From assembly GCF_014360585.1 (NCBI RefSeq), contig NZ_JACIXG010000012.1:3196-67195 (forward strand): a DNA stretch of 64,000 bases. Direction: 5' to 3'. The notes below the pieces were generated by a model. It was not told the origin of the DNA, did not search any database, and worked only from the letters and a program-made list of their open reading frames with translations. The translations under genes and the position numbers were made by a program. Positions 10,919 to 48,325 of the stretch are shown here, piece after piece. This DNA comes from Nocardioides sp. (GTDB lineage Bacteria; Actinomycetota; Actinomycetes; Propionibacteriales; Nocardioidaceae). The number at the start of each line of letters is the position of its first letter. The stretch's first letter is position 1.

Positions 10919-10991
10919 GCCGGTGTAGCTCAGTTGGTAGAGCGCCTCACTTGTAATGAGGATGTCGCGGGTTCGACTCCTGTCACCGGCT
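10919..10991 (+). tRNA. tRNA-Thr (anticodon TGT); CCA encoded at 10992-10994
   Basis: Acceptor GCCGGTG/CACCGGC, D-arm TAGCTCAGTTGGTAGAGC, anticodon stem-loop CCTCA-CTTGTAA-TGAGG, T-arm GCGGGTTCGACTCCTGT. Confidence 0.95.
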
Positions 10992-23469: not shown

Positions 23470-23489
23470 GGTGTAACACGTCGTTCGTA

Positions 23490-23523
23490 GGTCTATCCGG
23501 TCGTTACAACGACCGGATAGACC
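23490..23523. terminator. perfect 16-bp palindrome after lon, flanked by TGTAACA repeats
   Basis: GGTCTATCCGGTCGTT-ac-AACGACCGGATAGACC. TGTAACA at 23472 and 23525, inverted TGTTACA at 23535. No T-tract. Confidence 0.5.
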
Positions 23524-23637
23524 GTGTAACAGCGTGTTACAGCAGGCAGGGGAGCCCGCCCGGTCCGGATGGTGGACGCGCGGTCCGCGGAGTGGGACCC
23601 GCGTGTGCTGGCGGCGGGCTGCCTGCCGTACGATCGG

Positions 23638-23780
23638 TATTGCTCATCGAGAGGGACTGAGGGAACGGCCCTGAGAAGTCCCGGCAACCGCCACGAGCCT
23701 CCTCCCACCTGTGGGCGGGTCGTGGAAACGGTGCTAATTCCGGCCCGGCGCGAGAGACGTGATCGGGGAAGATGAGGAGG
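23638..23780 (+). promoter_or_regulatory. SAM-I (S-box) riboswitch
   Basis: P1 CTCATC (23643-23648) / GATGAG (23771-23776); AGAGGGACTGAGGGAACGGCCCTGAGAAGTCCCGGCAACC core; GGTGCTAATTCC. Matches the remembered T. tengcongensis SAM-I sequence almost block for block. Confidence 0.88.
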
Positions 23781-23789
23781 AGGTTTCTC

Positions 23790-25082
23790 ATGAGCGCTGT
23801 GACATCGGAGCCCAACGGCACGACCACGGAGAAGAAGGGTCTGCGCGAGGGTGCGTTCGGCAACGCCTCGGCACTGTCCTGCCGCGAGTGCGGCCACCAG
23901 ATCGATCTCGGACCGCAGTACGCGTGTCCGGAGTGTTTCGGGCCACTGGAGGTGGCCTATGACTTCCCGGCCGTGACCCGCGAGGAGATCGAGGCCGGCC
24001 CCCGCAACATCTGGCGCTACAAGGCGCTGCTGCCGGTGCCCGACGACATCGAGCAGAGCCCCAACACCGAGCCCGGCTTCACCCGGCTCCTGGATGCGAA
24101 GAACCTCGCCCGGGAGCTCGGCATCGAGAAGATCTGGGTGAAGGACGACTCGACCAACCCGACCAACTCCTTCAAGGACCGCGTCGTGGCTTGCGCGCTG
24201 AGCGCCGCCCGTGAGTTCGATGCCAAGGTCTTCGCCTGCCCCAGCACCGGCAACCTGGCCAACGCGGTCGCGGCCGCCGGGGCCCGGGCCGGGATCCCCA
24301 CCGTCGTCTTCATCCCGAGCAACCTCGAGCAGCCCAAGCAGGTCAACTCCGCGGTCTTCACCGACAACCTGATCGCCGTCGACGGCAACTACGACGACGT
24401 CAACAAGCTCGCTCAGGAGATCGCCTCGGAGGAGGACGGCTGGGCGTTCGTGAACGTCAACGTACGTCCCTTCTACGCCGAGGGCTCCAAGACGCTCGGC
24501 TTCGAGATCGCCGAGCAGCTCGGCTGGCGCCTGCCTGACCAGATCGTGATCCCGGTGGCCTCCGGCTCGCAGCTGACCAAGGTCGACAAGGCCTTCAAGG
24601 AGCTGATCAAGCTCGGTCTGGTCGAGGAGAAGCCCTACCGGATCTTCGGCGCCCAGGCGACCGGCTGCAACCCGGTCGCGACCGCCTTCAAGGCCGGCGT
24701 CGACGCCATCCGTCCGGTCAAGCCCGACACCATCGCCAAGTCGCTGGCCATCGGCAACCCCGCCGACGGCATCTACGTCCTCGACGCCACCCGCTCCTCC
24801 GGCGGCGCCGTCGAGGAGGTCACCGACGACGAGATCCGCTCGGCGATCGTGCTCCTGGCCCGCACCGAGGGCATCTTCACCGAGACCGCCGGCGGCACCA
24901 CGCTCGCGGTCACCAAGAAGCTCGTCGACAACGGTCTCCTCGACCCGAGCCTGGAGACGGTGATCATCAACACCGGCCACGGCCTCAAGACGCTCGACGC
25001 GATCAGCGGCATCGTCGGCCCTCGCGCCACCATCGCCCCCAACTACGACGCCTTCGAGGCGGCCGGGCTCTCGCAGGCGTAG
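23790..25082 (+). CDS. threonine synthase-family PLP enzyme with N-terminal zinc ribbon (ThrC-like; possibly homocysteine-forming)
   Basis: CRECGHQ...CPECFGPLEV; NPTNSFKDR PLP-lysine motif. Start moved to ATG 23790 (SD GGAGGAGG) because the ORF-track ATG 23772 lies in the riboswitch P1 strand. Confidence 0.85.
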   Translation: MSAVTSEPNGTTTEKKGLREGAFGNASALSCRECGHQIDLGPQYACPECFGPLEVAYDFPAVTREEIEAGPRNIWRYKALLPVPDDIEQSPNTEPGFTRLLDAKNLARELGIEKIWVKDDSTNPTNSFKDRVVACALSAAREFDAKVFACPSTGNLANAVAAAGARAGIPTVVFIPSNLEQPKQVNSAVFTDNLIAVDGNYDDVNKLAQEIASEEDGWAFVNVNVRPFYAEGSKTLGFEIAEQLGWRLPDQIVIPVASGSQLTKVDKAFKELIKLGLVEEKPYRIFGAQATGCNPVATAFKAGVDAIRPVKPDTIAKSLAIGNPADGIYVLDATRSSGGAVEEVTDDEIRSAIVLLARTEGIFTETAGGTTLAVTKKLVDNGLLDPSLETVIINTGHGLKTLDAISGIVGPRATIAPNYDAFEAAGLSQA

Positions 25083-25086: not shown

Positions 25087-25180
25087 GTTCCTTCGTCAAG
25101 GTATGCAGGTGAAGGCACGCTCCCCACGCGGAACTCCGCGCGGGAAGCGTGCTTTTCTCTGCATACCTTGACGAAGGAAC
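25087..25180. terminator. 94-nt extended hairpin with an inner terminator-like stem plus T-run
   Basis: Outer perfect 22-bp arms GTTCCTTCGTCAAGGTATGCAG (25087-25108) / CTGCATACCTTGACGAAGGAAC (25159-25180). Inner GGCACGCT...AGCGTGC followed by TTTTCT. Confidence 0.6.
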
Positions 25181-26153: not shown

Positions 26154-27761
26154 CTACTCGCCGGCGTCGGTTCCGGCCTCGTCGGGGCGCTTGCCGCCGG
26201 TGCTGAGCAGGTCGGCGGTGAGGCCTGTGGCGGCTCGGTAGTCCACGGTCCCCGCAGGCGTACGCGGCACCGACTCGACCAGCAGGACGAGCTTGGGCTC
26301 GTACGACTCCCCGAGGACGTCGCGGGCGTGCTTGCGCAGGTCGGCGGCGGTGGTCTCGACCGACGGGGCCATCTGCACCAGGGCCGCGACCTGCTGGCCC
26401 CAGCGGGGGTGGGGCATGCCGAAGACGGCCGCGTCGACGACGTCGTCGTGCGCGAGGAGGACGCCCTCGATGGTCTCGGGGTGGATCTGGAGATCGCCGG
26501 TCCGTACGAGGGTGGCGGCTCGGCCGAGCAAGGTGATCGAGCCGTCCTCCTCGCGGCGGGCGAGGTCGCCGGGGAAGGTCCAGCGGCGGTTGTCGATCAG
26601 CTTGATCGCGGTGGCCGAGCGGGCGTTGTCGTTGTAGTAGCCGAGCGCCGCCGGACCGGAGCGCGCCAGCAGCCCCTCGACCCCGGGGGCTGCCGGGGTG
26701 AGGTCGGGGTTGAAGACCTGCACCTCCGGGCCGACCATGAACCGCGGCTCGCCGGGCGCGACGGCCGAGCCGTCGTCGGCACGGGACCCGGTGACGCCGG
26801 TCTCCAGGGTGCCGTAGGAGTCGACGATGACCCGGCGGGCGAACGCGTTGCGCAGGACCGAGAGCACCCCGTCGGAGAGCGGCGCCGCGGTGCTGGAGAC
26901 GCCCGCGAGCGAGCGCAGCGGCCAGCGCTTCTTGCCGGTCAGCCGCGCCGCGGCGACCGGCCGCGCCTGGGCGTCACCGAGGAGTGTGATCGCGGTCGCG
27001 CCGGTCTTCTCGGCGAGGTCGAGGAAGGCCTCCGCCGAGAACGTCGGAGAGGTGTCGAGCACCGCGGTGCCGCCGGCGACCAGCGCCCGCAGGAGCAGCA
27101 GCTGGCTTTGTCCGTGCAGCAGCGGCCCGCCGGCGAGCAGGACGACGCTCGAGGCACGGGCGGCCGCTTCGGCGGCGAGGCCCGCGACCGAGGGGATCGG
27201 CGCGTTGTGGCGGACCGTGTTCAGCGCGGCCCAGATCAGGTCCTCCTGGCGCCAGACCGCGCCCTTCGGGGTGCCTGTGGTGCCGGTGGTGAAGATGATG
27301 TGCCAGTCGCCGGGGGTGCGCCCGACCGTCGGCCGTTCCTTGGACGCCGCGGCGACCTTGGCGTCGTAGTCGGGGCCGAGGACGACCCGGTGGTCCAGCT
27401 TCAGGTCGAGCTCGTCGAGGTCGCCGGTGAACTCGGGCGAGACGATGGCCGCGACACAGTCGGTGGCGGCGTACGTCCGGGCGAGCTCGTCGCGCCGGTA
27501 GGCGTGGTTGATGTTGACCGGGATCGTGCGGGCCTTGAGACACCCGTAGAGGGCGTCGACCCACTCGATGCGGTTGGTCGCGTGGATGGCGACCTGGGCG
27601 CCCGGCTCGAGCCCGACGCTCAGCAGGTGGTTGGCCAGGCGCGTGGCACGCTCGTCGATCTCGGCGTACGTGTAGGCGCGCTCGGTGGTGATGACTGCCG
27701 GGCGGTCGGGGATGGCATCGGCCATCGCTTCCAGGATATCGGGCAGTGTGAGGGGGATCAC
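26154..27761 (-). CDS. acyl-CoA synthetase-like ANL-family protein (FadD17/FadD19-like paralogue with a variant C-terminal motif)
   Basis: GTG start (V)IPLTLPDILEAMADAIPDR parallels the paralogue N-terminus. TTGTTGTPKG present, but PRTPAGTVDY replaces PRTPVSKVDY (A10 Lys to Thr) and TGDLQIHP replaces TGGEKVFP. Confidence 0.8.
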   Translation of the reverse strand: MIPLTLPDILEAMADAIPDRPAVITTERAYTYAEIDERATRLANHLLSVGLEPGAQVAIHATNRIEWVDALYGCLKARTIPVNINHAYRRDELARTYAATDCVAAIVSPEFTGDLDELDLKLDHRVVLGPDYDAKVAAASKERPTVGRTPGDWHIIFTTGTTGTPKGAVWRQEDLIWAALNTVRHNAPIPSVAGLAAEAAARASSVVLLAGGPLLHGQSQLLLLRALVAGGTAVLDTSPTFSAEAFLDLAEKTGATAITLLGDAQARPVAAARLTGKKRWPLRSLAGVSSTAAPLSDGVLSVLRNAFARRVIVDSYGTLETGVTGSRADDGSAVAPGEPRFMVGPEVQVFNPDLTPAAPGVEGLLARSGPAALGYYNDNARSATAIKLIDNRRWTFPGDLARREEDGSITLLGRAATLVRTGDLQIHPETIEGVLLAHDDVVDAAVFGMPHPRWGQQVAALVQMAPSVETTAADLRKHARDVLGESYEPKLVLLVESVPRTPAGTVDYRAATGLTADLLSTGGKRPDEAGTDAGE

Positions 27762-27849
27762 GGCGGACACAGGGCTTCTGCGCCTTCCAATTGGTAGGGC
27801 CAGGGGTAGCGCCGTACGGCAGCGAGCCGTACGTCGGATCACCCGGTCG

Positions 27850-29418
27850 TCACGTACGCGCCTCGAGCAGCTCGGCGGCGACCGTAGCGCTGGCACGATA
27901 GTCCACCTTGCTCACCGGCGTGCGAGGGACTCGCTCCACGAGCAGGATGTCCTTGGGCACCTTGTAGGCGGAGATCAGGCTGCGACAGTGCTCTCGGAGC
28001 GCGTCTGTCGAGGTCGCGGCCCCTTCTCGGAGCTGTACGAGGGCGGTGACCTGCTGGCCCCAGCGCTCGTTCGGGGTGCCGACGACCGCGGTGTCGAAGG
28101 CGTCGGGGTGACGCAGCAGGACGGACTCGACCTCCTCGGGGAAGACCTTCTCGCCACCGGTGTTGATGCAGCCCGAGCCGCGCCCCAGGACGGTGATCGA
28201 GCCGTCCTCCTCCCGCCGTGCGAAGTCGCCCGGGATCGACCAGCGCTGCCCGTCGACCTCCTTGAAGGTCGCTGCGGTCTTGACCGGGTCGTTGTAGTAG
28301 CCGAGCGGGATCGAGCCGGTGCGCGCGAGCATCCCGGTCTCACCCGGTGCGCACGGCCTCAGCTCGGTGTCGAAGACCTGTACGTCGATCCCGACCTGGA
28401 ACCTCGGCGCGGCCTGCGTGCCCTCGTTGCCCTCGTCGACCTGCATGCCGGTCGCCCCGGACTCCGAGGCGCCGTAGGAGTCGAGGATGTAGCGGCCCGG
28501 CAGCGCCTCCCGGAGCTGGCTGCGAACGCCGGCGGAGAGCGGGGCGGCGCCGTTGGAGACCGCGAACAGGCTGCTCAGGTCCCAGCGCTCCGGCTCGCGC
28601 AGGATCGCCTCGGCGACCGGGCGCCCCATCGCGTCACCGAGGAAGGTGAGCGAGTTGACCCCGGCGGCCTGGACGAGGTCGAGGATCGTCTCGGCCGACC
28701 AGGCGGGCTCGGTGTAGAGCGAGACCGTGCAGCCGGCGACATGGCCGTTGCCCATGATCCACTGGCTGCCGCCGTGCATCATCGGACCGCAGGCCAGGAG
28801 CACCATCGGGGACTCCTGTGCGGCGGCCTCCTCGGCGAGCTGCTCGACGGTGTCGAAGGGTGCTCCGAAGCGGCTCGCGTTCATCGCGGCGCGGATGATG
28901 TCCTCCTGGCGCCACACGACGCCCTTCGGCATCCCGGTGGTGCCGCCGGTGTAGATGACGTAGCGGTCATCTGGGCTGCGCTCGATGTCGGGACGCTCCT
29001 TGGAGGCGGCGGCGACCGCGGCGTCGTACTCCTCGCCCATCACCAGGGTCGGGATCCCCAGGTCGAGCGCTGCGACGGCCTCGACGTGCTCCGGTCCGAT
29101 GATCGCCGCGACCGCGTCGGAGTTGCGGTAGAGGTGGTCGAGCTCGTCGTGGAGGTACTTGTGGTTGATGTTGATCGGCACCGCTCGGGCCTTCATGCAG
29201 CCGTAGAAGGCGTCGACCCACTCGATCCGGTTGCGGGAGTGCACGGCGACGTGGTCGCCCGGCTCGATGCCCTGGCCGATGAGGTGGTTCGCGAGCCGGC
29301 TGGCGCGCTCGTCGAGCTCGGCGAAGCTGTAGGCGTGCTCCAAGGTGAACACGGCGGTGCGGTCGGGGATGGCGTCGGCCATCGCCTCGAGGACGTCGGG
29401 GAGAGTGATCGGGGTCAC
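27850..29418 (-). CDS. acyl-CoA synthetase (AMP-forming), FadD17/FadD19-like
   Basis: YTGGTTGMPKG, DSYGASESG, IPGDFARREEDGSITVLGRGSGCINTGGEKVFPEEVE, YKVPK...PRTPVSKVDY; canonical ANL motifs. Confidence 0.88.
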   Translation of the reverse strand: MTPITLPDVLEAMADAIPDRTAVFTLEHAYSFAELDERASRLANHLIGQGIEPGDHVAVHSRNRIEWVDAFYGCMKARAVPININHKYLHDELDHLYRNSDAVAAIIGPEHVEAVAALDLGIPTLVMGEEYDAAVAAASKERPDIERSPDDRYVIYTGGTTGMPKGVVWRQEDIIRAAMNASRFGAPFDTVEQLAEEAAAQESPMVLLACGPMMHGGSQWIMGNGHVAGCTVSLYTEPAWSAETILDLVQAAGVNSLTFLGDAMGRPVAEAILREPERWDLSSLFAVSNGAAPLSAGVRSQLREALPGRYILDSYGASESGATGMQVDEGNEGTQAAPRFQVGIDVQVFDTELRPCAPGETGMLARTGSIPLGYYNDPVKTAATFKEVDGQRWSIPGDFARREEDGSITVLGRGSGCINTGGEKVFPEEVESVLLRHPDAFDTAVVGTPNERWGQQVTALVQLREGAATSTDALREHCRSLISAYKVPKDILLVERVPRTPVSKVDYRASATVAAELLEART

Positions 29419-29436
29419 ATGAACGAGTGTGGCAAC

Positions 29437-29450
29437 TAGAACGTGTTCTC
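29437..29450. promoter_or_regulatory. KstR-type (TetR family) operator-like palindrome
   Basis: TAGAACGTGTTCTC fits 13 of 14 positions of TnnAACnnGTTnnA (last A is C). Lies 19 nt upstream of the fadD-like start (29418), in the divergent region shared with the pls-like gene. Confidence 0.55.
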
Positions 29451-29580
29451 GTCTAGCGGTTGCGGTGCAAAACCTTCTGAGGCCCCAGGCCTCGGGCCGG
29501 CCCGGGGGGTGACGGGTGGGACGAGAACAAATCGACAGGCAGAAAGAAGGAAGATGTACGTCGTCCGTTCAATTGGCCCC

Positions 29581-29681
29581 GGAAGGCTCCGCGTGTGAGC
29601 GAGCGTCAGCGAGAGAACCATCCAAGCTTCACGCGACCGCGTCCGTATCCTGGCGCTTGCGCTGCGGAGGTGGCCGCGTGA
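29581..29681 (+). repeat. copy C of the about 83-nt dispersed element, forming the immediate 5' leader, SD and start of the pls-like gene
   Basis: TGAGCGAGCGTCAGCGAG...CCGCGTCCGTATCCTGGCGCTTGCGCTGCGGAGGTGGCCGCGTG. Flanking repeats GGAAGGCTCCGCGTG (29581-29595) / GGAGGTGGCCGCGTG (29666-29680). 28-codon frame from GTG 29595 to TGA 29681. Confidence 0.75.
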
Positions 29682-32600
29682 TCGACCCTTTGCTGCGAGC
29701 AGATCTCGCGCCTGAGCCCCGGACCCTCGTCGACATCTTCCGCGCCACTGCGGCCCAGGTGCCCGACGAGCCGGCCGTCGACGCGGGCAACGGCCTGCTG
29801 ACGTACGCCGAGCTCGAGGAGGCCGCCGACGGGTTGGCCGCGGAGCTCAACGCCGCCGGGATCGGGCCGGGGGACAAGGTCGGGCTGCGGATCGCAAGTG
29901 GCACCACCGATCTGTACGTCGCGATCCTCGGCATCCTCTGTGCGGGCGCCGCCTACGTACCGGTCGACGCCGACGACCCCGAGGAGCGGGCCAGGCTGGT
30001 ATTCGGCGAGGCGCAGGTCGCCGCGGTCGTGACCAACGACCTGCGGGTCACCCTGACTCCGGTGGTCGAGCCTGTCGAGACCCGTGAGCCGGAGGAGCCC
30101 TCGACAGACGACGACGCCTGGGTGATCTTCACCTCCGGGTCGACCGGCACGCCCAAGGGCGTCGCGGTCACCCACCGCAGCGCCGCCGCGTTCGTCGACG
30201 CCGAGTCGCGCCTCTTCCTCCAAGACGCCCCGATCGGGGTCGGCGACCGGGTGATGGCCGGTCTCTCGGTCGCCTTCGACGCGAGCTGTGAGGAGATCTG
30301 GCTGGCCTGGCGCTACGGCGCCTGCCTGGTTCCGGCACCCCGTGCGCTGGTGCGCTCCGGGGTCGACGTCGGCCCGTGGCTGGTCGCCAACCAGATCACG
30401 GTCGTCTCGACCGTGCCGACGCTGGTGGCGCTGTGGCCGCCGTCGTCGCTCGACAAGGTCCGGCTGCTGATCACGGGCGGCGAGGCGATCCCGCCCGAGC
30501 TCGCCGCCCGTCTGGTCACGCCCGAGCGGGAGGTGTGGAACACCTACGGGCCGACCGAGGCGACGGTGGTGGCCTGCGGTGCCCGGCTGAGCGCCGAGGG
30601 GCCCGTACGGATCGGCCTCCCGCTCGACGGCTGGGACCTGGCCGTCGTCGACCCGGCGACCGGCATCCCGGTCCCCGCGGGTGAGACCGGTGAGCTGATC
30701 ATCGGCGGGGTCGGTCTGGCCCGCTACCTGGACGCGGCCAAGGACGCCGAGAAGTACGCCCCGATGCCGACCCTCGGCTGGGATCGGGCCTACCGCTCCG
30801 GAGACCTGGTCGTCAACGACCCCGCTGGGCTTCTCTTCGGCGGGCGTGCCGACGACCAGATCAAGCTGGGTGGCCGGCGCATCGAGCTCGGTGAGATCGA
30901 CAGTGCCCTGCTGCAGCTCGACGGGGTCGTCGGCGCCGCGGCGGCCGTCCGCAAGAGCGCTGCCGGCAACAGCCTGCTGGTCGGCTACGTCACGGTGGAG
31001 GACGCCTTCGACCACGCCGCCTCCGTCGCCCGGCTGCGGGCCGACATGCCGGCAGCCCTGGTGCCGCGGCTGGCCGTGGTCGACAGCCTCCCGACGCGTA
31101 CGAGCGGGAAGGTCGACCGCGACGCACTGCCGTGGCCGCTCGTCTCGGCCGAGGGAGCGGGGGAGGAGCTCAGTGACACCGAGAACTGGCTGGCCGGACT
31201 GTGGAACGACATCCTCGGCGCTGAGGTCGCCGGACCGGCGGCGGACTTCTTCGACCTCGGCGGCGGCAGCCTGACCGCAGCCCAGATGGTGAGCCTGATC
31301 CGGGAACGGTTCCCCGATGTCGCGCTCGGTGACATCTACGACCGGCCGAAGCTCGGCGCGCTGGCGGCCTACATCGACGAGCTGGGCAGCTCGGCTGCGG
31401 TCTCCGAACGTGAGGTGCCTGCGGTCCGGCGCCGGACCCAGTTCGCGCAGGTGGTCGCGACGATCCTGCTGCGCTGCCTCGCCGCACCGCGCTGGTTGAC
31501 CTGGATCGCGCTCGGGACGACGCTCGCCCAGCCGTGGGCGCCCTGGCTGCCCTCGATCGGCTGGTGGGTCCTCGTGCCGGCGATCCTGCTCTTCCTGACC
31601 CCGCCCGGCCGGATGCTGGTCGCGGCCGGGGTCGCCAGGCTCGTGCTGCGGGGGATCGGGCCGGGGGAGTATCCGCGCGGCGGCACGGTCCATCTGCGGC
31701 TCTGGCTGGCGACGCACGCCGTCGACGAGCTCGGCGCGCACGGTCTCGCCGGGGCGTCCTGGATGCTCTGGTACGCCAGGCTGCTCGGCGTGCGGATGGG
31801 CAAGAACGTCGACCTGCACAGCCTCCCGCCCGTCACCGGCATGCTCACCCTCGGCAAGGGCTGCTCGATCGAGCAGGAGGTCGACCTCTCCGGACACTGG
31901 ATCGAGGGTGACGTGCTCCATCTCGGCGCGGTCGAGATCGGCGAACGGGCCCGGATCGGCGCGCGGTCCACGCTGCTGCCGGGGGCCCGGGTCGGTGACG
32001 ACGCCGAGGTCGGGCCCGGGTCGGCCGTCTTCGGCGAGGTGCCGGCGGGCGAGTTCTGGTCCGGATCCCCGGCCGTCCGAGCCGCGCGGGAGGCACGCGG
32101 CCCGTGGCAGCCGCCCCAGGCGCGAGCCCGGGTGTGGATGCTTCTCTACGGCATCGCCGCCGCCGTGCTCGCGCTGCTGCCCGCGGTCGCCATCGGCGTC
32201 GGCGGGCTCGTCGCGGTCGCGCTGGCCGGCGTGCCTGAGTCCTACACCGACATCGGGCTGCTGCTCGCCTGGAGCCCGGTCGCGGTGGCGGCCGGCTTCT
32301 GCGCCCTGGCCGCGCTGATCTGGGCGGTGGTGCGGCTGGCCGGGCTGGCGATCACCCCCGGCGTACATCCGGTACGCAGCCTGGCCGGTGTCGCGGTCTG
32401 GTCGACGATGCAGGTGCTCGACGAGGCGCGCACCTGGCTCTTCCCGCTCTACTCCTCGACGCTGACGCCGCTGTGGCTGCGGGCGCTCGGCGCGAGGATC
32501 GGCAAGCGCGTCGAGGCGTCGACGGTGCTGATGATCCCCCGGCTGACGCAGGTCAACGACCAGAGTTTCCTGGCCGACGACACGCTGATCGGCGGCTACG

Positions 32601-33535
32601 AGCTCGGCGGCGGCTGGCTCCGGGTCGAGCGGGTGAAGATCGGCAAGCGCGCCTTCGTGGGCAACTCGGGCATGGCTGCCCCGGGCCGCAAGGTGCCGAA
32701 GGCGTCCCTGGTCGCCGTTCTCAGCGCGGCTCCTCGCCGCAAGCGGGCCCAGAAGGGGGAGAGCTGGCTCGGCTCGCCGCCGGCGCCGCTGCGGAGAGCG
32801 GCCGGTGACGCCGACTCGGGGCGTACCTATGACCCACCCACCCGCCTCCGGATCGCCCGGGCGCTCGTCGAGCTGGCCCGGCTGGTGCCGCAGACGCTCG
32901 CAGCGCTGCTCTACGCCGGCGTCGGCTATGTGCTCGTGCGGATCTGGGCGGCCACCGACCTCCTGGTCGCGGTCCTGGTCGCCGGGCCGGTCCTGGCGCT
33001 TGCCGGAGCGGTCGCGGCCGGCCTCACGGTGCTCGCCAAGTGGCTGCTCGTCGGCCGGATCCGGGCCGGGTCGCACCCGCTGTGGAGCTGGTTCGTGTGG
33101 GCCAACGAGCTGGCCGACACCTTCGTCGAGGTGCTCGCGGCGCCGTGGTTCACCGGCGCGGTGTCGGGCACCCCGGTGCTCAACCTGTGGTTCCGCGCGC
33201 TGGGGGCGAAGATCGGCCGGGGCGTGTGGATCGAGACCCACTGGCTACCCGAGACCGACCTGGTCGAGCTCGGCGACGGCGCCACGGTCAACGCCGGGAC
33301 GGTCGTGCAAACCCATCTCTTCCACGACCGTGTGCTGGCCCTCGACACGGTCGTCCTCGAGACCGGCGCCACGCTGGGGCCGAACTCGGTGATCCTGCCC
33401 GCGGCCGCGATCGGCCGGCATGCGGTCGTCGGCCCGGTGTCGCTGGTGATGCGCGGGGAGAGCCTTCCGGACAAGACGCTCTGGATCGGCAACCCCATCG
33501 GTCCGTGGGACCGATCGGGCGAGGACACCCTCTAA
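29678..33535 (+). CDS. Pls/PosA-family single-module non-ribosomal peptide synthetase (homopoly(amino acid) synthetase): A domain, T domain, six TM helices interleaved with three hexapeptide/acyltransferase-like domains
   Basis: A motifs FTSGSTGTPKG, NTYGPTE, GELIIGG, YRSGD, GRADDQIKLGGRRIELGEI, PTRTSGKVDR. T motif FFDLGGGSLTAAQ. Then paired TM helices with three soluble LbH-like blocks. GTG 29678 preceded by GGAGGTGG. Confidence 0.9.
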   Translation: MIDPLLRADLAPEPRTLVDIFRATAAQVPDEPAVDAGNGLLTYAELEEAADGLAAELNAAGIGPGDKVGLRIASGTTDLYVAILGILCAGAAYVPVDADDPEERARLVFGEAQVAAVVTNDLRVTLTPVVEPVETREPEEPSTDDDAWVIFTSGSTGTPKGVAVTHRSAAAFVDAESRLFLQDAPIGVGDRVMAGLSVAFDASCEEIWLAWRYGACLVPAPRALVRSGVDVGPWLVANQITVVSTVPTLVALWPPSSLDKVRLLITGGEAIPPELAARLVTPEREVWNTYGPTEATVVACGARLSAEGPVRIGLPLDGWDLAVVDPATGIPVPAGETGELIIGGVGLARYLDAAKDAEKYAPMPTLGWDRAYRSGDLVVNDPAGLLFGGRADDQIKLGGRRIELGEIDSALLQLDGVVGAAAAVRKSAAGNSLLVGYVTVEDAFDHAASVARLRADMPAALVPRLAVVDSLPTRTSGKVDRDALPWPLVSAEGAGEELSDTENWLAGLWNDILGAEVAGPAADFFDLGGGSLTAAQMVSLIRERFPDVALGDIYDRPKLGALAAYIDELGSSAAVSEREVPAVRRRTQFAQVVATILLRCLAAPRWLTWIALGTTLAQPWAPWLPSIGWWVLVPAILLFLTPPGRMLVAAGVARLVLRGIGPGEYPRGGTVHLRLWLATHAVDELGAHGLAGASWMLWYARLLGVRMGKNVDLHSLPPVTGMLTLGKGCSIEQEVDLSGHWIEGDVLHLGAVEIGERARIGARSTLLPGARVGDDAEVGPGSAVFGEVPAGEFWSGSPAVRAAREARGPWQPPQARARVWMLLYGIAAAVLALLPAVAIGVGGLVAVALAGVPESYTDIGLLLAWSPVAVAAGFCALAALIWAVVRLAGLAITPGVHPVRSLAGVAVWSTMQVLDEARTWLFPLYSSTLTPLWLRALGARIGKRVEASTVLMIPRLTQVNDQSFLADDTLIGGYELGGGWLRVERVKIGKRAFVGNSGMAAPGRKVPKASLVAVLSAAPRRKRAQKGESWLGSPPAPLRRAAGDADSGRTYDPPTRLRIARALVELARLVPQTLAALLYAGVGYVLVRIWAATDLLVAVLVAGPVLALAGAVAAGLTVLAKWLLVGRIRAGSHPLWSWFVWANELADTFVEVLAAPWFTGAVSGTPVLNLWFRALGAKIGRGVWIETHWLPETDLVELGDGATVNAGTVVQTHLFHDRVLALDTVVLETGATLGPNSVILPAAAIGRHAVVGPVSLVMRGESLPDKTLWIGNPIGPWDRSGEDTL

Positions 33536-41768: not shown

Positions 41769-42362
41769 ATGAGGCATGATGTGGTCATGAGCGACGATGT
41801 CGGGCCGAACACCGGGATGGAGCAGCCGCGGTCGCCGTGGCGCTGGGTGGCGGCGGTCGGAGCTGCCGCGGTCGTGCTCGTCGCCATCGTCGCCTCGTTC
41901 GGGCTCCTGGGCTCCGACGACACCGCCGACGATCCCGCTGCCGCGCCGCCGTCGCCGACCGCGACGGTCACCGAGACCGCGCCGGTCCCGTCGGCATCGG
42001 CTTCTTCCGGAGGTGCCGGGGCGACCGAGCTGACCGTCGTCGCGGACGCCGCCCGCTGCCTCCCGCCGACCTCGAAGTGGCTCTCGCAGAACGCCGCGCT
42101 GGCCTTCGAGGGCACCGTGAAGAGCATGAAGAAGGATGAAGCCGTCCTGCGGGTCAAGACGTGGATGTACGCCGATGGTGTCGGTGGCACCGACACCGTC
42201 CGGATCATCCTGCCGGCGCCGAGCACGATCCCGATGCCCGAGTTCGAGAAGGGCAAGGACTACCTGGTCGCGGCCAAGGGCGATGGCAAGGTCATCGGCT
42301 GCGGCTACAGCGACGCCAAGAGCGCTAATCTGCAGAAGCTGTACACCACCGCGTTCAAGTGA
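41769..42362 (+). CDS. hypothetical membrane-anchored protein
   Basis: Single TM (WVAAVGAAAVVLVAIVASFGLLG), Pro/Ala-rich linker, about 100-aa C-terminal domain. Start ambiguous (41769, 41787 or 41817). Confidence 0.5.
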   Translation: MRHDVVMSDDVGPNTGMEQPRSPWRWVAAVGAAAVVLVAIVASFGLLGSDDTADDPAAAPPSPTATVTETAPVPSASASSGGAGATELTVVADAARCLPPTSKWLSQNAALAFEGTVKSMKKDEAVLRVKTWMYADGVGGTDTVRIILPAPSTIPMPEFEKGKDYLVAAKGDGKVIGCGYSDAKSANLQKLYTTAFK

Positions 42363-42369
42363 CGGCCAG

Positions 42370-42900
42370 ATGATCGCGGGGCTGCTGCTCGCCGCCGGCG
42401 CCGGGCGGCGGATGGGTGGGCCCAAGGCACTCGTCGACGACTGGCTGGTCCGCTCGATCGAGGTGTTGCGCGACGGCGGCTGCGACGAGGTGCTCGTCGT
42501 GCTCGGGGCCGCCGCGGACGAGGCGCGAGCACGGCTCCCGGAGGGACAGCAGGTCGTCGTCGCCGCAAACTGGGACGAGGGGATGGGAGCATCGCTTCGG
42601 GTCGGTCTGGAGACGCTCGGGCCGGACGTGGAGGCTGCCGTGGTTCACCTGGTCGACCTGCCGGATGTCGGTGCCGATGTGGTCTCACGAGTGGTCTCGA
42701 CGGGCACTACCACCGGGTTGGCGCGCGCGGCGTACTCGGGCGTCCCTGGCCACCCGGTGCTGATCGGCCGCGACCATTGGTCCAGGGTCATCGAAGCCGC
42801 GGTCGGCGACGAAGGGGCCCGCCGCTACCTGAGGTCCCACGACGTACGCCTGGTGGAGTGCGGCGACCTGGCTGGCGGGCGGGACGTCGACAGTCGGTGA
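42370..42900 (+). CDS. MobA/MocA-like nucleotidyltransferase (molybdenum cofactor cytidylyltransferase-like)
   Basis: LLLAAGAGRRMGGPKAL N-terminal motif; LVDLPDV. Next to the Mo-hydroxylase maturation genes. Confidence 0.75.
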   Translation: MIAGLLLAAGAGRRMGGPKALVDDWLVRSIEVLRDGGCDEVLVVLGAAADEARARLPEGQQVVVAANWDEGMGASLRVGLETLGPDVEAAVVHLVDLPDVGADVVSRVVSTGTTTGLARAAYSGVPGHPVLIGRDHWSRVIEAAVGDEGARRYLRSHDVRLVECGDLAGGRDVDSR

Positions 42901-42911
42901 CGGGCGATGCC

Positions 42912-42978
42912 GGGGTAGTCCGGTAGCGACCTGCCTATTACTCGCCGGTAAATGGGCAGTTCGCTACCGGACTACCCC
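42912..42978. repeat. nested palindromic (REP-like) element H2
   Basis: GGGGTAGTCCGGTAGCGA (42912-42929) / TCGCTACCGGACTACCCC (42961-42978), perfect 18 bp. Inner CTGCC/GGCAG; loop core TTACTCGCCGGTAA. Homologous to H1. Confidence 0.75.
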
Positions 42979-43023
42979 GCCGCCCAACCACCAACCAACG
43001 ACACGCGCTCTACGCTGAGGACC

Positions 43024-43905
43024 ATGGAGTCGCTGACGCCCGAGATGATCGCCGACCGGCTGGCGGCGACGGGCTATCTGGCCGATCCGGAGCTGGCGAC
43101 GGTGACCTTCCTCGCGCTGCGGATGCAGCGGCCGCTGCTGCTCGAGGGCGAGCCCGGCACCGGCAAGACCGCGCTCGCCGAGGCGGTCGCCGAGGCGCTG
43201 GACCTGCCGCTGGTGCGGCTGCAGTGCTATGAGGGGATCGATGCCACCCAGGCGCTCTACGACTGGGACTTCGCCCGCCAGATCCTGCATCTGCGCGCGC
43301 TCGAGGCGACAGGTGGCACGGCCGAGGTCGAGGAGGCCGAGAAGTCCCTCTATGACGAGCGGTTCCTGCTCGCCCGGCCCGTGCTGGCCGCGCTGCGACA
43401 GGCGCCGTCGGTGCTGCTCGTCGACGAGATCGACCGGGCCGACGACGAGTTCGAGGCGTTCCTGCTGGAGGTGCTGTCGACCTATCGGGTGACGATCCCG
43501 GAGTTCGGGACGATCGCCGCTGTGGTCCCGCCGATCGTCGTGCTCACCTCCAACCGCACCCGCGAGCTCCACGACGCCCTCAAGCGCCGCTGCCTCTACC
43601 ACTGGATCGACCACCCGGGGCTGGAGCGCGAGATCGAGATCGTACGCAGCCGAGCCCCCGAGGTCGCCGACGAGCTCGCCCGCCAGGTGGTCACGGTGGT
43701 CCAGCAGCTGCGCAGCGCAGAGGGCGCGAGCGCGCTGCTCAAGCCTCCCGGAGTCGCCGAGACGCTCGACTGGGCGCGCGCCCTGCACCACCTCGGCTCG
43801 ACCGAGATGGACCTGGAGAGCGCCGCGGCCACGCTCGGAGCGCTCGTGAAGCACCGCGAGGATGCCGATCGCGTCCGGGTCGCCCTGGACCGGCTGCTGG
43901 CATGA
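43024..43905 (+). CDS. MoxR-family AAA+ ATPase (CoxD-like)
   Basis: Walker A GEPGTGKT, Walker B LLVDEIDR, LTSNRTRELHDALKRRCLY. Start ATG 43024; the ORF-track ATG 42952 lies in the H2 loop. Confidence 0.88.
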   Translation: MESLTPEMIADRLAATGYLADPELATVTFLALRMQRPLLLEGEPGTGKTALAEAVAEALDLPLVRLQCYEGIDATQALYDWDFARQILHLRALEATGGTAEVEEAEKSLYDERFLLARPVLAALRQAPSVLLVDEIDRADDEFEAFLLEVLSTYRVTIPEFGTIAAVVPPIVVLTSNRTRELHDALKRRCLYHWIDHPGLEREIEIVRSRAPEVADELARQVVTVVQQLRSAEGASALLKPPGVAETLDWARALHHLGSTEMDLESAAATLGALVKHREDADRVRVALDRLLA

Positions 43906-46197: not shown

Positions 46198-46396
46198 ACG
46201 GACACAGCAGACGTTCCTGATCTCCTGCGCCTGGGCGCTGGGCGCGATCGGCCTCCGCCAGATCCAGCTGTCGCAGAGCACCTCGGTGGCGGTCGTGGCA
46301 CTGGTCTGCGCCGGCATCCTGGTCCTCGCCATGCTCTTCCACGGGATCGCTCGGGGACTGTCGTACGACGAACCGCAGCGAGGCGTTCCGGTCTGA
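46148..46396 (+). CDS. possible small two-TM membrane protein (start unclear)
   Basis: GC3-rich frame with two hydrophobic stretches (FLISCAWALGAIGL, VAVVALVCAGILVLAMLF). No canonical start after the xdhC stop; GTG 46148 overlaps xdhC by 50 nt. Confidence 0.3.
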   Translation: MASVWPSPPDGSTKSVRRTQQTFLISCAWALGAIGLRQIQLSQSTSVAVVALVCAGILVLAMLFHGIARGLSYDEPQRGVPV

Positions 46397-46425
46397 CCGT
46401 CAGCACCCCAGGCTGAGAAGGAGCT

Positions 46426-46884
46426 CTACAGCTCCTTCTCGTAGTAGAGCGCCCGCGGCCCGGAGCCGCGGCCCTCGTGGTTGTCGAAGCCGAACTTCTC
46501 GTACAGCGCGCGGGCCGAGGTGTCGTCCTCGCTGGTCCCCAGGTCCATGTACGTCACACCGCGGGCCTTCGCCTCGTCGATGATCGCCTGCAGCAGGATG
46601 GTGCCGAGTCCCTGCCCGCGGCGGTCGGGCACGACGTAGAGCTCGGCGAGGTAGGCCTCGAGCTCATCGGCCGTGGACCGCAGTCGGAAGCGGGTGATGC
46701 CGTGGCCCACCGCCGGGTCGCCGATCAGCATCACGGTCGTGTCCCCGTTCTCGACCAGCCGGCTCAGGTGCCGGGCGAGCTCCTCGGTGGGCGGGGCGGG
46801 GTCGCCGTACTCGGTGTTGAAGTCGACCTGCAGCCTGGCCGCGGTCTCGAAGTCGGCCTTGGTCGTGGCCGTGCGCGTCTCCAT
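46426..46884 (-). CDS. GNAT family N-acetyltransferase
   Basis: LYVVPDRRGQGLGTILL motif A; YEKFGF. Start METRT at 46884. Confidence 0.8.
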   Translation of the reverse strand: METRTATTKADFETAARLQVDFNTEYGDPAPPTEELARHLSRLVENGDTTVMLIGDPAVGHGITRFRLRSTADELEAYLAELYVVPDRRGQGLGTILLQAIIDEAKARGVTYMDLGTSEDDTSARALYEKFGFDNHEGRGSGPRALYYEKEL

Positions 46885-46996
46885 GCACTCACTGTGCCAT
46901 CGCCGAGCTGGTACCACCGAGGGGATCGTGAGGCACGTCACAGGGTGCTACCTTGGCAGGACCCAGTCTCGAGGGCCGAGCTCCGAAGGGGGAGTG

Positions 46997-48301: not shown

Positions 48302-48325
48302 AGTGACGTCTGGCAGGGAGACAAC

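What the first reader, a model, noticed from the sequence alone, without database searches (positions are those of the whole stretch)
23638..25082. SAM-I riboswitch controls a threonine-synthase-family gene, arguing for a role in methionine rather than threonine synthesis
**The riboswitch.** A textbook SAM-I aptamer (P1 CTCATC/GATGAG, K-turn GAGGGA...TGA, GCAACC, GGTGCTAATTCC) ends 10 nt before the SD.

**The expression platform.** The SD GGAGGAGG (23776-23783) directly abuts the 3' strand of P1. A perfectly complementary CCTCCTCC (23698-23705) sits in the P3 distal region. This gives an obvious SD-sequestering alternative, so control is probably translational.

**Why it matters.** SAM sensing makes no sense for threonine synthesis. 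To my recollection, a ThrC homologue (MetM) has been reported in Streptomyces. It converts O-phosphohomoserine to homocysteine with a thiocarboxylated carrier protein (MetO), and the genes sit behind a SAM riboswitch. I cannot verify the reference here.

No carrier gene follows this one. A 94-nt hairpin does instead, so any partner would be encoded elsewhere.
Basis: partly seen in the sequence, partly recalled or inferred. Interest (0 to 1): 0.65.

Follow-up and report, generated by a model that had tools for sequence, protein, structure and literature searches.

The report
SAM-I riboswitch before orphan metM gene
A genuine SAM-sensing RNA switch in a Nocardioides genome controls a gene that databases call threonine synthase but that is almost certainly MetM, the recently described enzyme that makes homocysteine for methionine; this copy has lost its usual partner gene for the sulfur carrier.

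Summary
Rfam finds a full SAM-I aptamer at 23641-23778 (71.1 bits, threshold 44.4). GGAGGAGG abuts P1, CCUCCUCC lies in P3, and a 430-aa ThrC-family gene runs from 23790 to 25082.

The gene is best read as metM. In 71 of 80 Nocardioidaceae orthologous loci, a 91-aa ThiS/MoaD carrier ending in GG (metO) lies 0-164 nt downstream. Nonomuraea shows the same SAM-I/metM/metO order and also has a separate thrC-thrB operon. MetM/MetO behind a SAM riboswitch was published for Streptomyces albulus in 2024, so the main idea is correct but already known.

New here:
- metO was deleted from this locus in the N. luteus clade, yet metM stays under purifying selection (dN/dS 0.10-0.22).
- The 94-nt hairpin is a strain-level 86-nt insertion.
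- The anti-SD is a conserved pyrimidine bulge on P3 whose flanks covary with the SD spacer.
- More distant metM leaders pair their ribosome-binding site with distal P3 in a different way.

I favour a translational OFF switch that uses a tail-to-P3 pseudoknot like PK-2 of SAM-IV. The direction of switching is inferred, not shown. The source of sulfur in this clade is open.

The parts
23629..23634 (+). Candidate -10 promoter hexamer TACGAT. It would start the transcript about 5 nt before P1.
   Evidence: Inference from the sequence. A TAnnnT hexamer sits at the same distance (12-13 nt) from CTCATC in relatives. The sigma-70 consensus scan found nothing. No transcript data.
23641..23778 (+). SAM-I riboswitch aptamer (RF00162), a four-way junction of P1-P4 with a kink-turn in P2
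   Evidence: 71.1 bits against a gathering score of 44.4, E 1.2e-14. 89.3% of helix cells are paired across 79 leaders, against 38-44% with slid partners.
23643..23648 (+). P1 5' strand CUCAUC
   Evidence: Pairs with 23771-23776. Five of the six pairs are invariant in 79 leaders.
23683..23735 (+). P3: a 13-bp basal stem (23683-96 with 23720-35), then the anti-SD and a variable distal hairpin
   Evidence: The upper basal helix has compensatory changes (column 59:127 is A-U in 36 leaders and G-C in 33).
23698..23705 (+). Anti-SD CCUCCUCC on the 5' side of P3, directly above the basal stem
   Evidence: CUCC occurs in the P3 region of 61 of 79 leaders, at a fixed offset. Dinucleotide shuffles give 27 +/- 4. 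In about half of the leaders it is a pure 5-nt bulge. Its flanks covary with the SD spacer.
23771..23776 (+). P1 3' strand GAUGAG
23776..23783 (+). Shine-Dalgarno GGAGGAGG (core GGAGG 23779-23783), 6 nt before the start codon
   Evidence: GAUGAG(A/G)AGGAGG followed by 5-9 nt and then the start codon is found in nearly all of the 80 relatives.
23790..25082 (+). metM-type gene: a ThrC-family PLP enzyme of 430 aa, annotated 'threonine synthase' in databases
   Evidence: PALP 232 bits. TIGR00260 scores 254 bits, above its cut-off of 167. GC3 is 0.95. Orthologues are followed by metO in 71 of 80 loci. dN/dS is 0.10-0.22.
23880..23936 (+). N-terminal four-cysteine (zinc-ribbon-like) motif, Cys31/34/46/49. 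It is absent from the solved ThrC structures and from Nonomuraea ThrC.
   Evidence: Invariant in 81 of 81 orthologues. CxxC...CxxC is present in 78 of 81 wider homologues. PDB ThrC chains align only from residue about 71 onward.
24174..24176 (+). Codon of Lys129 in the SFKDR motif, the presumed PLP-binding lysine
   Evidence: Invariant in 81 of 81. Aligns with SFKDR of solved ThrC structures. The assignment as PLP lysine rests on family knowledge.
25087..25180 (+). 94-nt near-perfect hairpin. It is an 86-nt insertion found in some strains only.
   Evidence: Arms of 46 nt, 87% complementary. Absent from L001, which is 97% identical at protein level. A contig of run X3 skips 25086->25173. No other copy in the window or in the 80 genome loci then held.
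25137..25159 (+). Terminator-like core of the hairpin: a G+C-rich stem followed by UUUUCUCU
   Evidence: Consensus scan. Function not shown.

Best explanation
The window is from a Nocardioides of the N. luteus group.

**What it is.** A transcript starting about 5 nt before P1 folds into a SAM-I aptamer that controls one gene. That gene encodes a MetM-type enzyme: a threonine-synthase paralogue that turns O-phosphohomoserine into homocysteine using sulfur from a thiocarboxylated ThiS/MoaD-type carrier (MetO). The enzyme chemistry is taken from the literature on S. albulus and was not tested here.

**How control most likely works.** Control is at translation initiation.
1. The SD follows the 3' strand of P1 without a gap.
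2. The SD is complementary to a pyrimidine bulge (CCUCC) displayed on the 5' side of P3, 13 bp above the junction.
3. When SAM locks P1 against P3, the SD is held next to this bulge and pairs with it.
4. The result is a tail-to-P3 pseudoknot comparable to PK-2 of SAM-IV. It hides the ribosome-binding site, so SAM turns the gene OFF.

**What is unusual in this lineage.** The carrier gene metO, which ancestrally followed metM, has been deleted from the locus. The enzyme is still under selection. It must therefore draw sulfur from a carrier encoded elsewhere, or from another donor.

**Shown:** the aptamer, the SD/anti-SD complementarity with its conservation and covariation, the ancestral metM-metO operon, the loss of metO, and purifying selection.

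**Inferred:** SAM binding, the pseudoknot, the OFF direction, the enzyme reaction and the sulfur source.
For: **Aptamer.**
- RF00162 at 71.1 bits, with helices supported on 79 leaders.

**MetM identity.**
- 71 of 80 orthologous loci have a 91-aa carrier gene (50-59% identical to M. tuberculosis CysO, ending AVAGG-stop) 0-164 nt downstream.
- Pfam assigns the carrier to ThiS.
- The gene order otsA/otsB-(lon)-[SAM-I-metM-metO]-GDSL-groEL is conserved.
- Nonomuraea gerenzanensis has SAM-I (68.7 bits), a 65%-identical homologue and metO (66%). It also has a canonical 352-aa thrC followed by thrB elsewhere. The window protein is only 34% identical to that ThrC.
- 20 of 20 environmental homologues tested have SAM-I upstream, and 53 of 65 have metO downstream.
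- Literature.

**Platform.**
- CUCC lies at a fixed P3 position in 61 of 79 leaders, against 27 +/- 4 in shuffles.
- Native anti-SD/SD duplexes average -11.7 kcal/mol. Cross-paired ones average -10.9 +/- 0.19, and 0 of 5000 permutations reach the native value.
- In about half of the leaders the motif is a pure bulge in an otherwise intact P3. That fits a partner displayed by the folded aptamer.
- In 25 of 34 more distant metM leaders, the SD/spacer instead pairs over 7-10 bp with the 3' strand of distal P3 (GCGAGGCC with GGCCUCGC). Compensatory variants occur (UGAGGCC with GGCCUCA, CGGCGAGG with CCUCGCCG). The SAM-binding core is again left intact.
- PK-2 of SAM-IV joins the P3 loop to the 3' end in both the apo and the SAM-bound cryo-EM structures. 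SAM-I, SAM-I/IV and SAM-IV share two parallel coaxial stacks (PMC6890682).

**metO loss and selection.**
- (an isolate-type run joins metM directly to the GDSL gene and has no metO-like contig at 80% or more nucleotide identity).
- dN/dS is 0.10-0.22 inside the metO-less clade.
Against: - No experiment and no RNA data bear on this leader.
- Nested folding predicts the opposite direction for this leader. The minimum-free-energy structure (-74.3 kcal/mol) has SD:anti-SD pairing and no P1. The P1-forced fold is 8.2 kcal/mol worse and leaves the SD more open (unpaired probability 0.35 against 0.01, row L001, whose leader is identical to the window's). Taken literally, SAM would open the ribosome-binding site.
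- The pseudoknot geometry (a 2-nt linker between P1 and the SD helix, and a bulge 13 bp up P3) was not modelled in three dimensions.
- In the Nocardioidaceae the longest contiguous tail-to-P3 helix is hardly longer than in shuffles (5.6 against 5.2 bp).
- Some leaders (L007, L063, L065, and Aeromicrobium L043, L066, L076) have no anti-SD in P3.
- Identity to S. albulus MetM itself could not be computed, because neither the sequence nor the paper is held.
- A housekeeping thrC in this particular genome was not demonstrated.
- Without metO in cis, the enzyme's sulfur donor here is unknown.
Confidence: 0.55

Rival explanations
1. The SD:anti-SD helix is the ligand-free alternative to the aptamer and excludes P1 and upper P3. 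SAM binding would then free the ribosome-binding site, making this a SAM-ON switch. Alternatively, the helix dampens translation all the time and has little dependence on SAM.
For: - The minimum-free-energy fold of the window leader pairs CCUCCUCC with the SD and breaks P1. The P1-forced fold is 8.2 kcal/mol less stable and has a more open SD.
- The covarying flanks reach 2-3 nt into the upper basal P3 strand.
- RNAalifold prefers pairing of the P1 5' strand with AUGAGC at the start codon, which would also close the start codon when P1 is open.
- The adenine (add) ON switch also has its SD partner inside the aptamer (my own knowledge).
Against: - SAM-induced synthesis of a methionine-pathway enzyme would be positive feedback.
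- From my own knowledge, all characterised SAM riboswitches that I know of are OFF switches.
- A conserved single-stranded bulge in an intact P3 is not needed for a purely competitive partner.
- Only about 18 of 79 leaders show SD:P3 pairing in the nested ensemble, and the median cost of forcing P1 is 0.8 kcal/mol.
- In distant leaders the partner lies in distal P3 and does not touch the core.
Confidence: 0.17
2. The gene is a real threonine synthase. SAM control would redirect O-phosphohomoserine toward threonine when SAM is plentiful, as in plants, where SAM activates threonine synthase.
For: - TIGR00260 (thrC equivalog) scores 254 bits, above its cut-off.
- Every source names the protein and its relatives threonine synthase.
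- No metO lies next to it in this genome.
- The nested fold suggests an ON switch.
- A cyanobacterial homologue with a metO-like neighbour was reported to behave as a threonine synthase/deaminase in vitro (PMC12172450).
Against: - Orthologues at 79-93% identity are followed by metO in 71 of 80 loci.
- The protein is only 34% identical to the canonical ThrC of an actinomycete that has both genes.
- It carries an invariant N-terminal four-cysteine domain that the solved ThrC structures lack.
- No hom or thrB gene lies nearby.
- GapMind curators state that MetM is often misannotated as threonine synthase.
Confidence: 0.06
3. After losing metO, the enzyme in the N. luteus clade changed its substrate or role. 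It might use free sulfide or another thiol directly, or make a different gamma-substituted amino acid. It would then no longer be a MetO-dependent homocysteine synthase.
For: - metO is absent within 10 kb in the window, L001-L003, L009, L021, L031, L038 and L056. These form at least three separate groups.
- 12 of 65 environmental loci also lack an adjacent metO.
- No metO-like contig at 80% or more nucleotide identity exists in the isolate-type run X2.
- The gene remains under purifying selection.
Against: - The SAM riboswitch is retained unchanged, so the product still belongs to SAM/methionine economy.
- Protein identity to metO-linked orthologues is 88-93%.
- A more divergent carrier elsewhere in the genome was not excluded. 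From my own knowledge, MoeZ-type systems serve several carriers in actinobacteria.
Confidence: 0.15
4. Control acts mainly on the transcript, by premature termination, Rho or RNA decay, rather than on initiation of translation.
For: From my own knowledge, most studied SAM-I riboswitches end transcription. Blocked translation often exposes a transcript to Rho.
Against: - No terminator-like hairpin with a U tract lies between the aptamer and the start codon. Only 11 nt separate them, and the scan found none there.
- The SD abuts P1 in nearly all of the 80 relatives.
Confidence: 0.07

Closest known systems
metM-metO of Streptomyces albulus (Hasebe et al. 2024, Appl Environ Microbiol 90:e01247-24). 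MetM is a MetO-thiocarboxylate-dependent homocysteine synthase acting on O-phospho-L-homoserine.
   Same: - A ThrC-homologous PLP enzyme behind a SAM riboswitch.
- In most relatives of the window gene a ThiS/MoaD carrier gene follows directly.
- The locus lies between otsA/otsB and groEL here and in Nonomuraea.
   Different: - This copy has no metO in cis or anywhere in the 64 kb.
- Identity to the S. albulus protein could not be measured.
- Activity is not tested.
- The organism is a Nocardioides (Propionibacteriales), not a Streptomyces.
CysM-CysO-Mec cysteine pathway of Mycobacterium tuberculosis
   Same: A thiocarboxylated ThiS/MoaD carrier ending in GG donates sulfur to a PLP enzyme that acts on an O-phospho amino acid. 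The carriers found next to the orthologues are 50-59% identical to CysO as I recalled its sequence.
   Different: - The enzyme here has a ThrC fold, not a CysM/CysK fold.
- The product would be homocysteine, not cysteine.
- The CysO sequence was recalled from memory and served only as a probe.
PK-2 pseudoknot of SAM-IV and SAM-I/IV riboswitches
   Same: The sequence 3' of P1 pairs with peripheral P3 while the SAM-binding core stays folded. The parallel P1 and P3 stacks are shared with SAM-I (PMC6890682).
   Different: - These leaders are true SAM-I, with P4 and a kink-turn, at 66-84 bits.
- The partner is a 5' bulge of P3 in Nocardioides, or the 3' strand of distal P3 in other lineages, not the terminal loop.
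- The 3' strand is the ribosome-binding site itself.
- The pairing is inferred from conservation and covariation only.
SAM-I(Xcc) translational riboswitch of the Xanthomonas campestris met operon (PMC7270179)
   Same: A SAM-I aptamer that represses translation by hiding the SD and the AUG.
   Different: In Xanthomonas the anti-SD and anti-AUG lie in a separate expression platform downstream of the aptamer, and that platform also binds tRNA-fMet. Here there is no room for a platform: the SD abuts P1 and the anti-SD is inside P3.
Canonical threonine synthase ThrC (TIGR00260; PDB 1UIM, 6CGQ, 2D1F)
   Same: PALP fold, the SFKDR lysine motif and the same substrate, O-phosphohomoserine. The HMM score is above the curated cut-off.
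   Different: - 34% identity to the canonical ThrC of an actinomycete that has both genes.
- An extra N-terminal four-cysteine domain of about 70 aa.
- No hom or thrB neighbours.
- SAM riboswitch control and an ancestral link to metO.

Membership tests
SAM-I riboswitch (Rfam RF00162) | Covariance-model score at or above the curated gathering score, over the full model | tested here: met
   71.1 bits against 44.4, model positions 1-108, not truncated.
SAM-I riboswitch (Rfam RF00162) | Four-way junction P1-P4 with the conserved junction sequences and a kink-turn in P2, and helices kept in relatives | tested here: met
   Of the 43 pairs counted (35 aptamer pairs plus the 8-pair SD helix), 89.3% of cells are paired on 79 leaders, against 38-44% when slid. 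Compensatory changes occur in P2a, P3 and P4. GCAACC, GGUGCUAAUUCC and GAGGGA are present.
SAM-I riboswitch (Rfam RF00162) | Binds S-adenosylmethionine and changes expression of the downstream gene | not testable with these tools
   Needs in-line probing or ITC and reporter assays.
MetM (MetO-thiocarboxylate-dependent homocysteine synthase) | ThrC-homologous PLP enzyme with the lysine motif intact | tested here: met
   PALP 232 bits, TIGR00260 254 bits. Lys129 in SFKDR is invariant in 81 of 81.
MetM (MetO-thiocarboxylate-dependent homocysteine synthase) | SAM riboswitch upstream, as reported for S. albulus metM | tested here: met
   It is also found in Nonomuraea and in 20 of 20 environmental homologues tested. 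The report on S. albulus is known only through PMC12172450.
MetM (MetO-thiocarboxylate-dependent homocysteine synthase) | Gene for the sulfur carrier MetO (ThiS/MoaD, C-terminal GG) adjacent | tested here: not met
   None lies downstream or anywhere in the window. The feature is met in 71 of 80 orthologous loci and in Nonomuraea, so the absence is a secondary loss.
MetM (MetO-thiocarboxylate-dependent homocysteine synthase) | Close sequence relationship to the characterised S. albulus MetM | not tested
   Neither the sequence nor the paper (PMC11497804) is held. Orthology is argued from synteny only.
MetM (MetO-thiocarboxylate-dependent homocysteine synthase) | Is a second paralogue beside a housekeeping thrC in the same genome | tested here: inconclusive
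   This is shown for Nonomuraea gerenzanensis, which has thrC-thrB at 2.50 Mb and SAM-I-metM-metO at 11.81 Mb. The rest of the Nocardioides genome could not be searched.
MetM (MetO-thiocarboxylate-dependent homocysteine synthase) | Converts O-phospho-L-homoserine plus MetO-thiocarboxylate to homocysteine and rescues methionine auxotrophy | not testable with these tools
   Needs enzyme assays and complementation.
Threonine synthase ThrC (TIGR00260 equivalog) | HMM score above the curated cut-off | tested here: met
   254.2 bits against 167.1. NCBIfam release 20 returned no MetM-named model, so the pipeline name is 'threonine synthase'. Nonomuraea's true ThrC scores 309.7 bits and its MetM homologue 270.2.
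Threonine synthase ThrC (TIGR00260 equivalog) | Housekeeping context (hom/thrB neighbours) and orthology to canonical actinobacterial ThrC | tested here: not met
   Its neighbours are lon and a GDSL hydrolase gene. It is 34% identical to the Nonomuraea ThrC that sits next to thrB.

The most novel reading that the evidence does not exclude
Actinobacterial metM leaders would be a distinct architectural variant of SAM-I. The ribosome-binding site itself forms a PK-2-like pseudoknot with peripheral P3. In Nocardioidaceae the partner is a 5' pyrimidine bulge. In other lineages it is the 3' strand of the distal hairpin (GCGAGGCC with GGCCUCGC). The aptamer and the expression platform would thus be one compact fold. 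In addition, in several lineages, including this one, MetM would work without a dedicated MetO, which points to a shared carrier or a different sulfur donor.
Probability: 0.35. Interest if true: 0.6.

Novelty: new member of a known kind. Interest (0 to 1): 0.42.

Why it matters
**Annotation.** This gene and every close relative listed by the protein search (120 shown of at least 8000 hits) are named threonine synthase wherever a source names them. NCBIfam release 20 returned no MetM-named model, and the thrC equivalog passes its cut-off. Pathway reconstructions for Nocardioides and many other actinobacteria will therefore miss a methionine route and count two threonine synthases. The triad of SAM-I, a four-cysteine ThrC paralogue and a GG-ending carrier is a simple rule for correcting this.

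**Biochemistry.** Lineages that kept a riboswitch-controlled, selected metM but lost metO are natural test cases. They can show whether MetM can share another carrier or use another sulfur donor.

**RNA biology.** If the pairing between the ribosome-binding site and P3 is real, it shows how a SAM-I aptamer can regulate translation with no separate expression platform. It would also link SAM-I structurally to SAM-IV and SAM-I/IV.

Tried and rejected
**Literature.**
- The Hasebe 2024 paper (PMC11497804) and Rodionov 2004 (PMC443535) are not held. MetM facts come second-hand from PMC12172450, the GapMind 2026 preprint and one bioRxiv paper.

**Looking for a carrier gene.**
- A scan for GG-ending small ORFs in the window found nothing credible.
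- A search with the MetO of N. cheoyonin returned no N. luteus-group protein among the best 120. This is uninformative, because only 120 of at least 8000 hits are listed.
- One hit suspected of being a second carrier (P0235) was only another assembly of the N. zeae metM-metO locus.

**Looking for a second thrC in this genome.**
- No tool reaches the rest of the genome.
- Nonomuraea served as a stand-in.

**RNA folding.**
- Nested thermodynamic folding of 79 leaders gave no consistent family-wide switch. I do not rely on it for the direction of switching.
- I rejected P1 extension by the 5' leader as the way the SD is hidden. The leader is too short and is not complementary, except possibly in L043 (read by eye).

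**Other.**
- The sigma-70 scan found no promoter.
- I rejected the hairpin as a remnant of metO or as a repeated mobile element. There is no tblastn signal and no other copy in the window or in the 80 genome loci then held.
- Pfam annotation of about 40 window genes found no Mec, MoeZ, CysM or methionine genes.
Full report
**1. The observation**

Rfam's SAM-I model (RF00162) matches 23641-23778 on the + strand. The score is 71.1 bits against a gathering score of 44.4, with E 1.2e-14 and all 108 model positions matched. It is the only riboswitch in the window.

The helices read from the sequence are:
- P1: CUCAUC 23643-48 with GAUGAG 23771-76
- P2a: 23653-57 with 23678-82
- P2b: 23661-63 with 23669-71
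- P3, a 13-bp basal stem: 23683-96 with 23720-35, with a bulged A and an AAA bulge
- P4: 23744-52 with 23758-67

The start codon is ATG 23790. The longer ORF from ATG 23772 begins inside P1 and is an artefact of ORF listing.

The gene (23790-25082) encodes a 430-aa PALP-fold protein. TIGR00260 (thrC) scores 254 bits against a cut-off of 167. PRK08197 scores 291 bits, below its cut-off of 303.

**2. The organism and the relatives**

The closest proteins (97-98% identical) are from Nocardioides sp. and N. luteus. All that carry a name are called threonine synthase. A scan of one genome per species returned 80 Nocardioidaceae loci at 79-97% identity.

Nearly all have the same leader. After the aptamer comes GAUGAG(A/G)AGGAGG, then 5-9 nt, then the start codon, usually AUGAGC. 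The few exceptions, such as Aeromicrobium L043, L066 and L076, have variant SD regions.

On 79 distinct leaders, 89.3% of the cells in the helices I defined form standard pairs. Only 38-44% do when the partners are slid by 1-3 columns. Upper P3 shows many compensatory swaps; column 59:127 is A-U in 36 leaders and G-C in 33.

**3. What the gene is**

A tblastn search used M. tuberculosis CysO, recalled from memory and used only as a probe. In 71 of the 80 loci it found a 91-aa ThiS/MoaD protein ending AVAGG-stop, 0-164 nt behind the ThrC-like gene. Pfam assigns it to ThiS.

This is the arrangement reported for S. albulus metM-metO. MetM is a threonine-synthase homologue that makes homocysteine from O-phospho-L-homoserine with MetO-thiocarboxylate. 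It is preceded by a SAM riboswitch and is 'often misannotated' as threonine synthase (GapMind 2026 preprint; PMC12172450; a 2026 bioRxiv paper).

Two further lines of evidence agree:
- **Nonomuraea gerenzanensis.** The 11.85-Mb replicon filed in PLSDB has SAM-I (68.7 bits), a 65%-identical homologue and metO (66%) between otsA/otsB and groEL. It also has, 9 Mb away, a canonical 352-aa thrC (TIGR00260 at 309.7 bits) directly followed by thrB. The window protein is 34% identical to that ThrC.
- **Environmental homologues.** Among 80 metagenome loci (55-83% identical to the Nonomuraea protein), 20 of 20 tested have a full SAM-I upstream (66-84 bits). Of the 65 with enough downstream DNA, 53 have metO next door.

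The protein carries an N-terminal four-cysteine motif (Cys31/34/46/49). It is invariant in 81 of 81 orthologues and present in 78 of 81 wider homologues. Solved ThrC structures align only from residue about 71.

I could not compute identity to the S. albulus protein. I also could not search the rest of this genome for a housekeeping thrC.

**4. The missing carrier and the hairpin**

The gene order otsA/LytR_C/otsB-(lon)-[SAM-I-metM-metO]-GDSL-...-groEL is conserved. N. cheoyonin (L013, 88% identical) has lon-metM-metO-GDSL. The window, L001, L002 and L003 have lon-metM-GDSL. metO was therefore deleted in the N. luteus group.

Other losses are seen in L009, L021 and the group L031/L038/L056. 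An isolate-type sequencing run that holds the window sequence joins metM directly to the GDSL gene. It has no metO-like contig at 80% or more nucleotide identity.

The gene is still under purifying selection within the metO-less clade, with dN/dS 0.10-0.22, and the riboswitch is unchanged. No ThiS-like, Mec, MoeZ or CysM gene lies in the 64 kb.

The 94-nt hairpin has arms 25087-25132 and 25135-25180, 87% complementary. Its core looks like a terminator, followed by UUUUCUCU. It is not a substitute for metO:
- The 97%-identical strain L001 lacks it.
- A soil-metagenome contig skips exactly 25086->25173.

It is a recent 86-nt insertion, with no other copy in the window or in the 80 genome loci then held.

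**5. The expression platform**

The anti-SD is conserved.
- CUCC occurs in the P3 region of 61 of 79 leaders, at a fixed offset of 8-11 nt after GCAACC. Dinucleotide-preserving shuffles give 27 +/- 4, with a maximum of 39 in 500.
- Native anti-SD/SD+spacer duplexes average -11.7 kcal/mol. Cross-paired ones average -10.9 +/- 0.19, and 0 of 5000 permutations reach the native mean. Examples of flank covariation are GAACCUCC with GGAGGUUC in L073 and GCGU..CC with GGACGC in L069.
- In fixed alignment columns, the five core pairs hold in 45-75 of 79 leaders.

Folding P3 alone shows that in about half of the leaders the motif is a pure 5-nt bulge (GCCUC, ACUCC or GUCCC). It sits between an intact basal stem and a variable distal stem.

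The difficulty is the direction of switching. In a nested secondary structure, SD:anti-SD pairing crosses P1 and basal P3. For the window leader (row L001, identical sequence), the minimum-free-energy fold (-74.3 kcal/mol) has this pairing and no P1. The P1-forced fold is 8.2 kcal/mol worse. Read literally, SAM would open the ribosome-binding site, which is absurd for a methionine-pathway gene.

Across the family, nested folding is inconsistent. The median cost of forcing P1 is 0.8 kcal/mol, and SD:P3 pairing appears in the ensemble of only about 18 of 79 leaders.

I therefore favour pairing that coexists with the folded aptamer, that is, a pseudoknot. Three observations support this:
1. The partner is displayed as a bulge on a folded P3.
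2. In 25 of 34 more distant metM leaders, the SD/spacer pairs over 7-10 bp with a different peripheral element, the 3' strand of the distal P3 hairpin (GCGAGGCC with GGCCUCGC).
   - Compensatory variants occur: UGAGGCC with GGCCUCA in L118 and L131, CGCGAGG with CCUCGCG in L120 and L122, CGGCGAGG with CCUCGCCG in L138, and GCGAGGCUC with GGGCCUCGC in L088-L095.
   - The core is again untouched. The longest helix averages 7.6 bp against 5.9 bp in shuffles.
3. In SAM-IV, PK-2 joins the P3 loop to the 3' end in both the apo and the SAM-bound cryo-EM structures. SAM-I, SAM-I/IV and SAM-IV share two parallel coaxial stacks (PMC6890682).

By my arithmetic, a 13-bp basal P3 equals 8 bp of P1 plus a 5-bp SD helix. 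This fits an SD helix that continues P1 beside P3. It is geometry on paper and was not modelled.

**6. Comparison with what is known, and verdict**

The riboswitch is an ordinary member of SAM-I. The gene is best filed as a MetM-type homocysteine synthase, with one defining feature (an adjacent metO) tested and not met because of secondary loss. The central idea of the finding is correct but has been in the literature since 2024.

What may be new:
- the recurrent loss of metO beside a still-selected metM;
- the pairing between the ribosome-binding site and P3 in metM leaders.

My confidences are:

| Claim | Confidence |
|---|---|
| SAM-I aptamer | about 0.97 |
| MetM-type rather than housekeeping ThrC | about 0.85 |
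| Control at translation involving the P3 anti-SD | about 0.7 |
| OFF switch by a pseudoknot | about 0.5 |

Noticed in passing
window 23472-23541: A 70-nt palindrome (34-nt arms, 82% complementary; TGTAACACG...CGTGTTACA) lies between the lon stop codon and the metM promoter. It is present only in the window and in L001 among close relatives. In two runs that hold this sequence, word depth rises from 52 to 954 and from 9 to 229, and contigs break there with several different flanks. It is therefore probably a dispersed repeat of roughly 20 copies per genome (MITE- or REP-like). There is only one copy in the 64 kb.
   Followed up: partly
window 25087-25180: The hairpin after the stop codon is an indel polymorphism. 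It is identical in runs X1 and X2. It is absent from L001 and from an X3 contig that skips 86 nt. Its left arm TTCCTTCG is the inverted copy of the flank CGAAGGAA that was already there. This suggests a template-switch or fold-back origin rather than a transposed element.
   Followed up: partly
window 23789-23795 and 23642-23648; alignment A1 columns 4-9 with 204-209: AUGAG occurs twice: in the 3' strand of P1, and as the start codon plus the first two bases of the Ser codon AGC. Most of the 79 leaders start with AUGAGC, GUGAGC or UUGAGC, although the rest of the N-terminus varies. RNAalifold prefers pairing the P1 5' strand GCUCAU with AUGAGC. Where the spacer is CUC, the sequence CUCAUGAG is a palindrome that can pair with either P1 strand. 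The meaning is unclear.
   Followed up: partly
L082 5834-6000; L084-L148 leaders: In Nonomuraea and many environmental metM leaders, the spacer GGCCUCGC between SD and start codon is complementary to GCGAGGCC in the 3' strand of the distal P3 hairpin. The 5' strand of that hairpin (CUCGC) looks like the spacer, which would make it an internal competitor.
   Followed up: partly
L032, L036, L040, L054, L058, L060, L067, L071, L080 leaders (Marmoricola-like): These leaders have the palindrome AAGGAGGCCUCCUU, which spans the SD and a UUG start codon. It could form a small local hairpin that hides the SD, in addition to the CCUCC motif in P3.
   Followed up: no
about 45-75 nt upstream of P1 in L011, L014, L016, L018, L020, L023, L027, L029, L042, L044, L053, L057; window 23565-23600: Upstream of the presumed -10 hexamer lies a conserved block. 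It has two copies of CAUCGUG(G/A)GAC-like sequence around a palindrome ATGTGC(A/G)CAT. The window has GGTGGAC...AGTGGGAC with GGACGCGCGGTCC. This may be a binding site for a protein regulator acting on top of the riboswitch.
   Followed up: no
window 26154-33535: Two AMP-binding (acyl-CoA-ligase-like) genes on the - strand and a 1339-aa NRPS-like gene (AMP-binding, PP-binding, hexapeptide repeats) lie between the GDSL gene and groEL. L003 and L013 have a much shorter interval there, so this block looks like an insertion in the N. luteus group.
   Followed up: no
window 42136-52856: A cluster of the CO-dehydrogenase/xanthine-dehydrogenase type: MobA-like transferase, AAA ATPase, CoxE-like VWA protein, XdhC, 2Fe-2S small subunit, molybdopterin large subunit and CoxG. 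It is unrelated to the finding.
   Followed up: no
PLSDB record NZ_LT559118.1 (L082, L083): The record titled 'Nonomuraea gerenzanensis plasmid I' is 11.85 Mb long and carries housekeeping thrC-thrB and groEL. It is a chromosome-sized replicon filed among plasmids, with only 10 annotated features.
   Followed up: no
window 10919-10991: One tRNA gene (71.2 bits) lies between an alanine:sodium symporter gene and a rhomboid protease gene.
   Followed up: no
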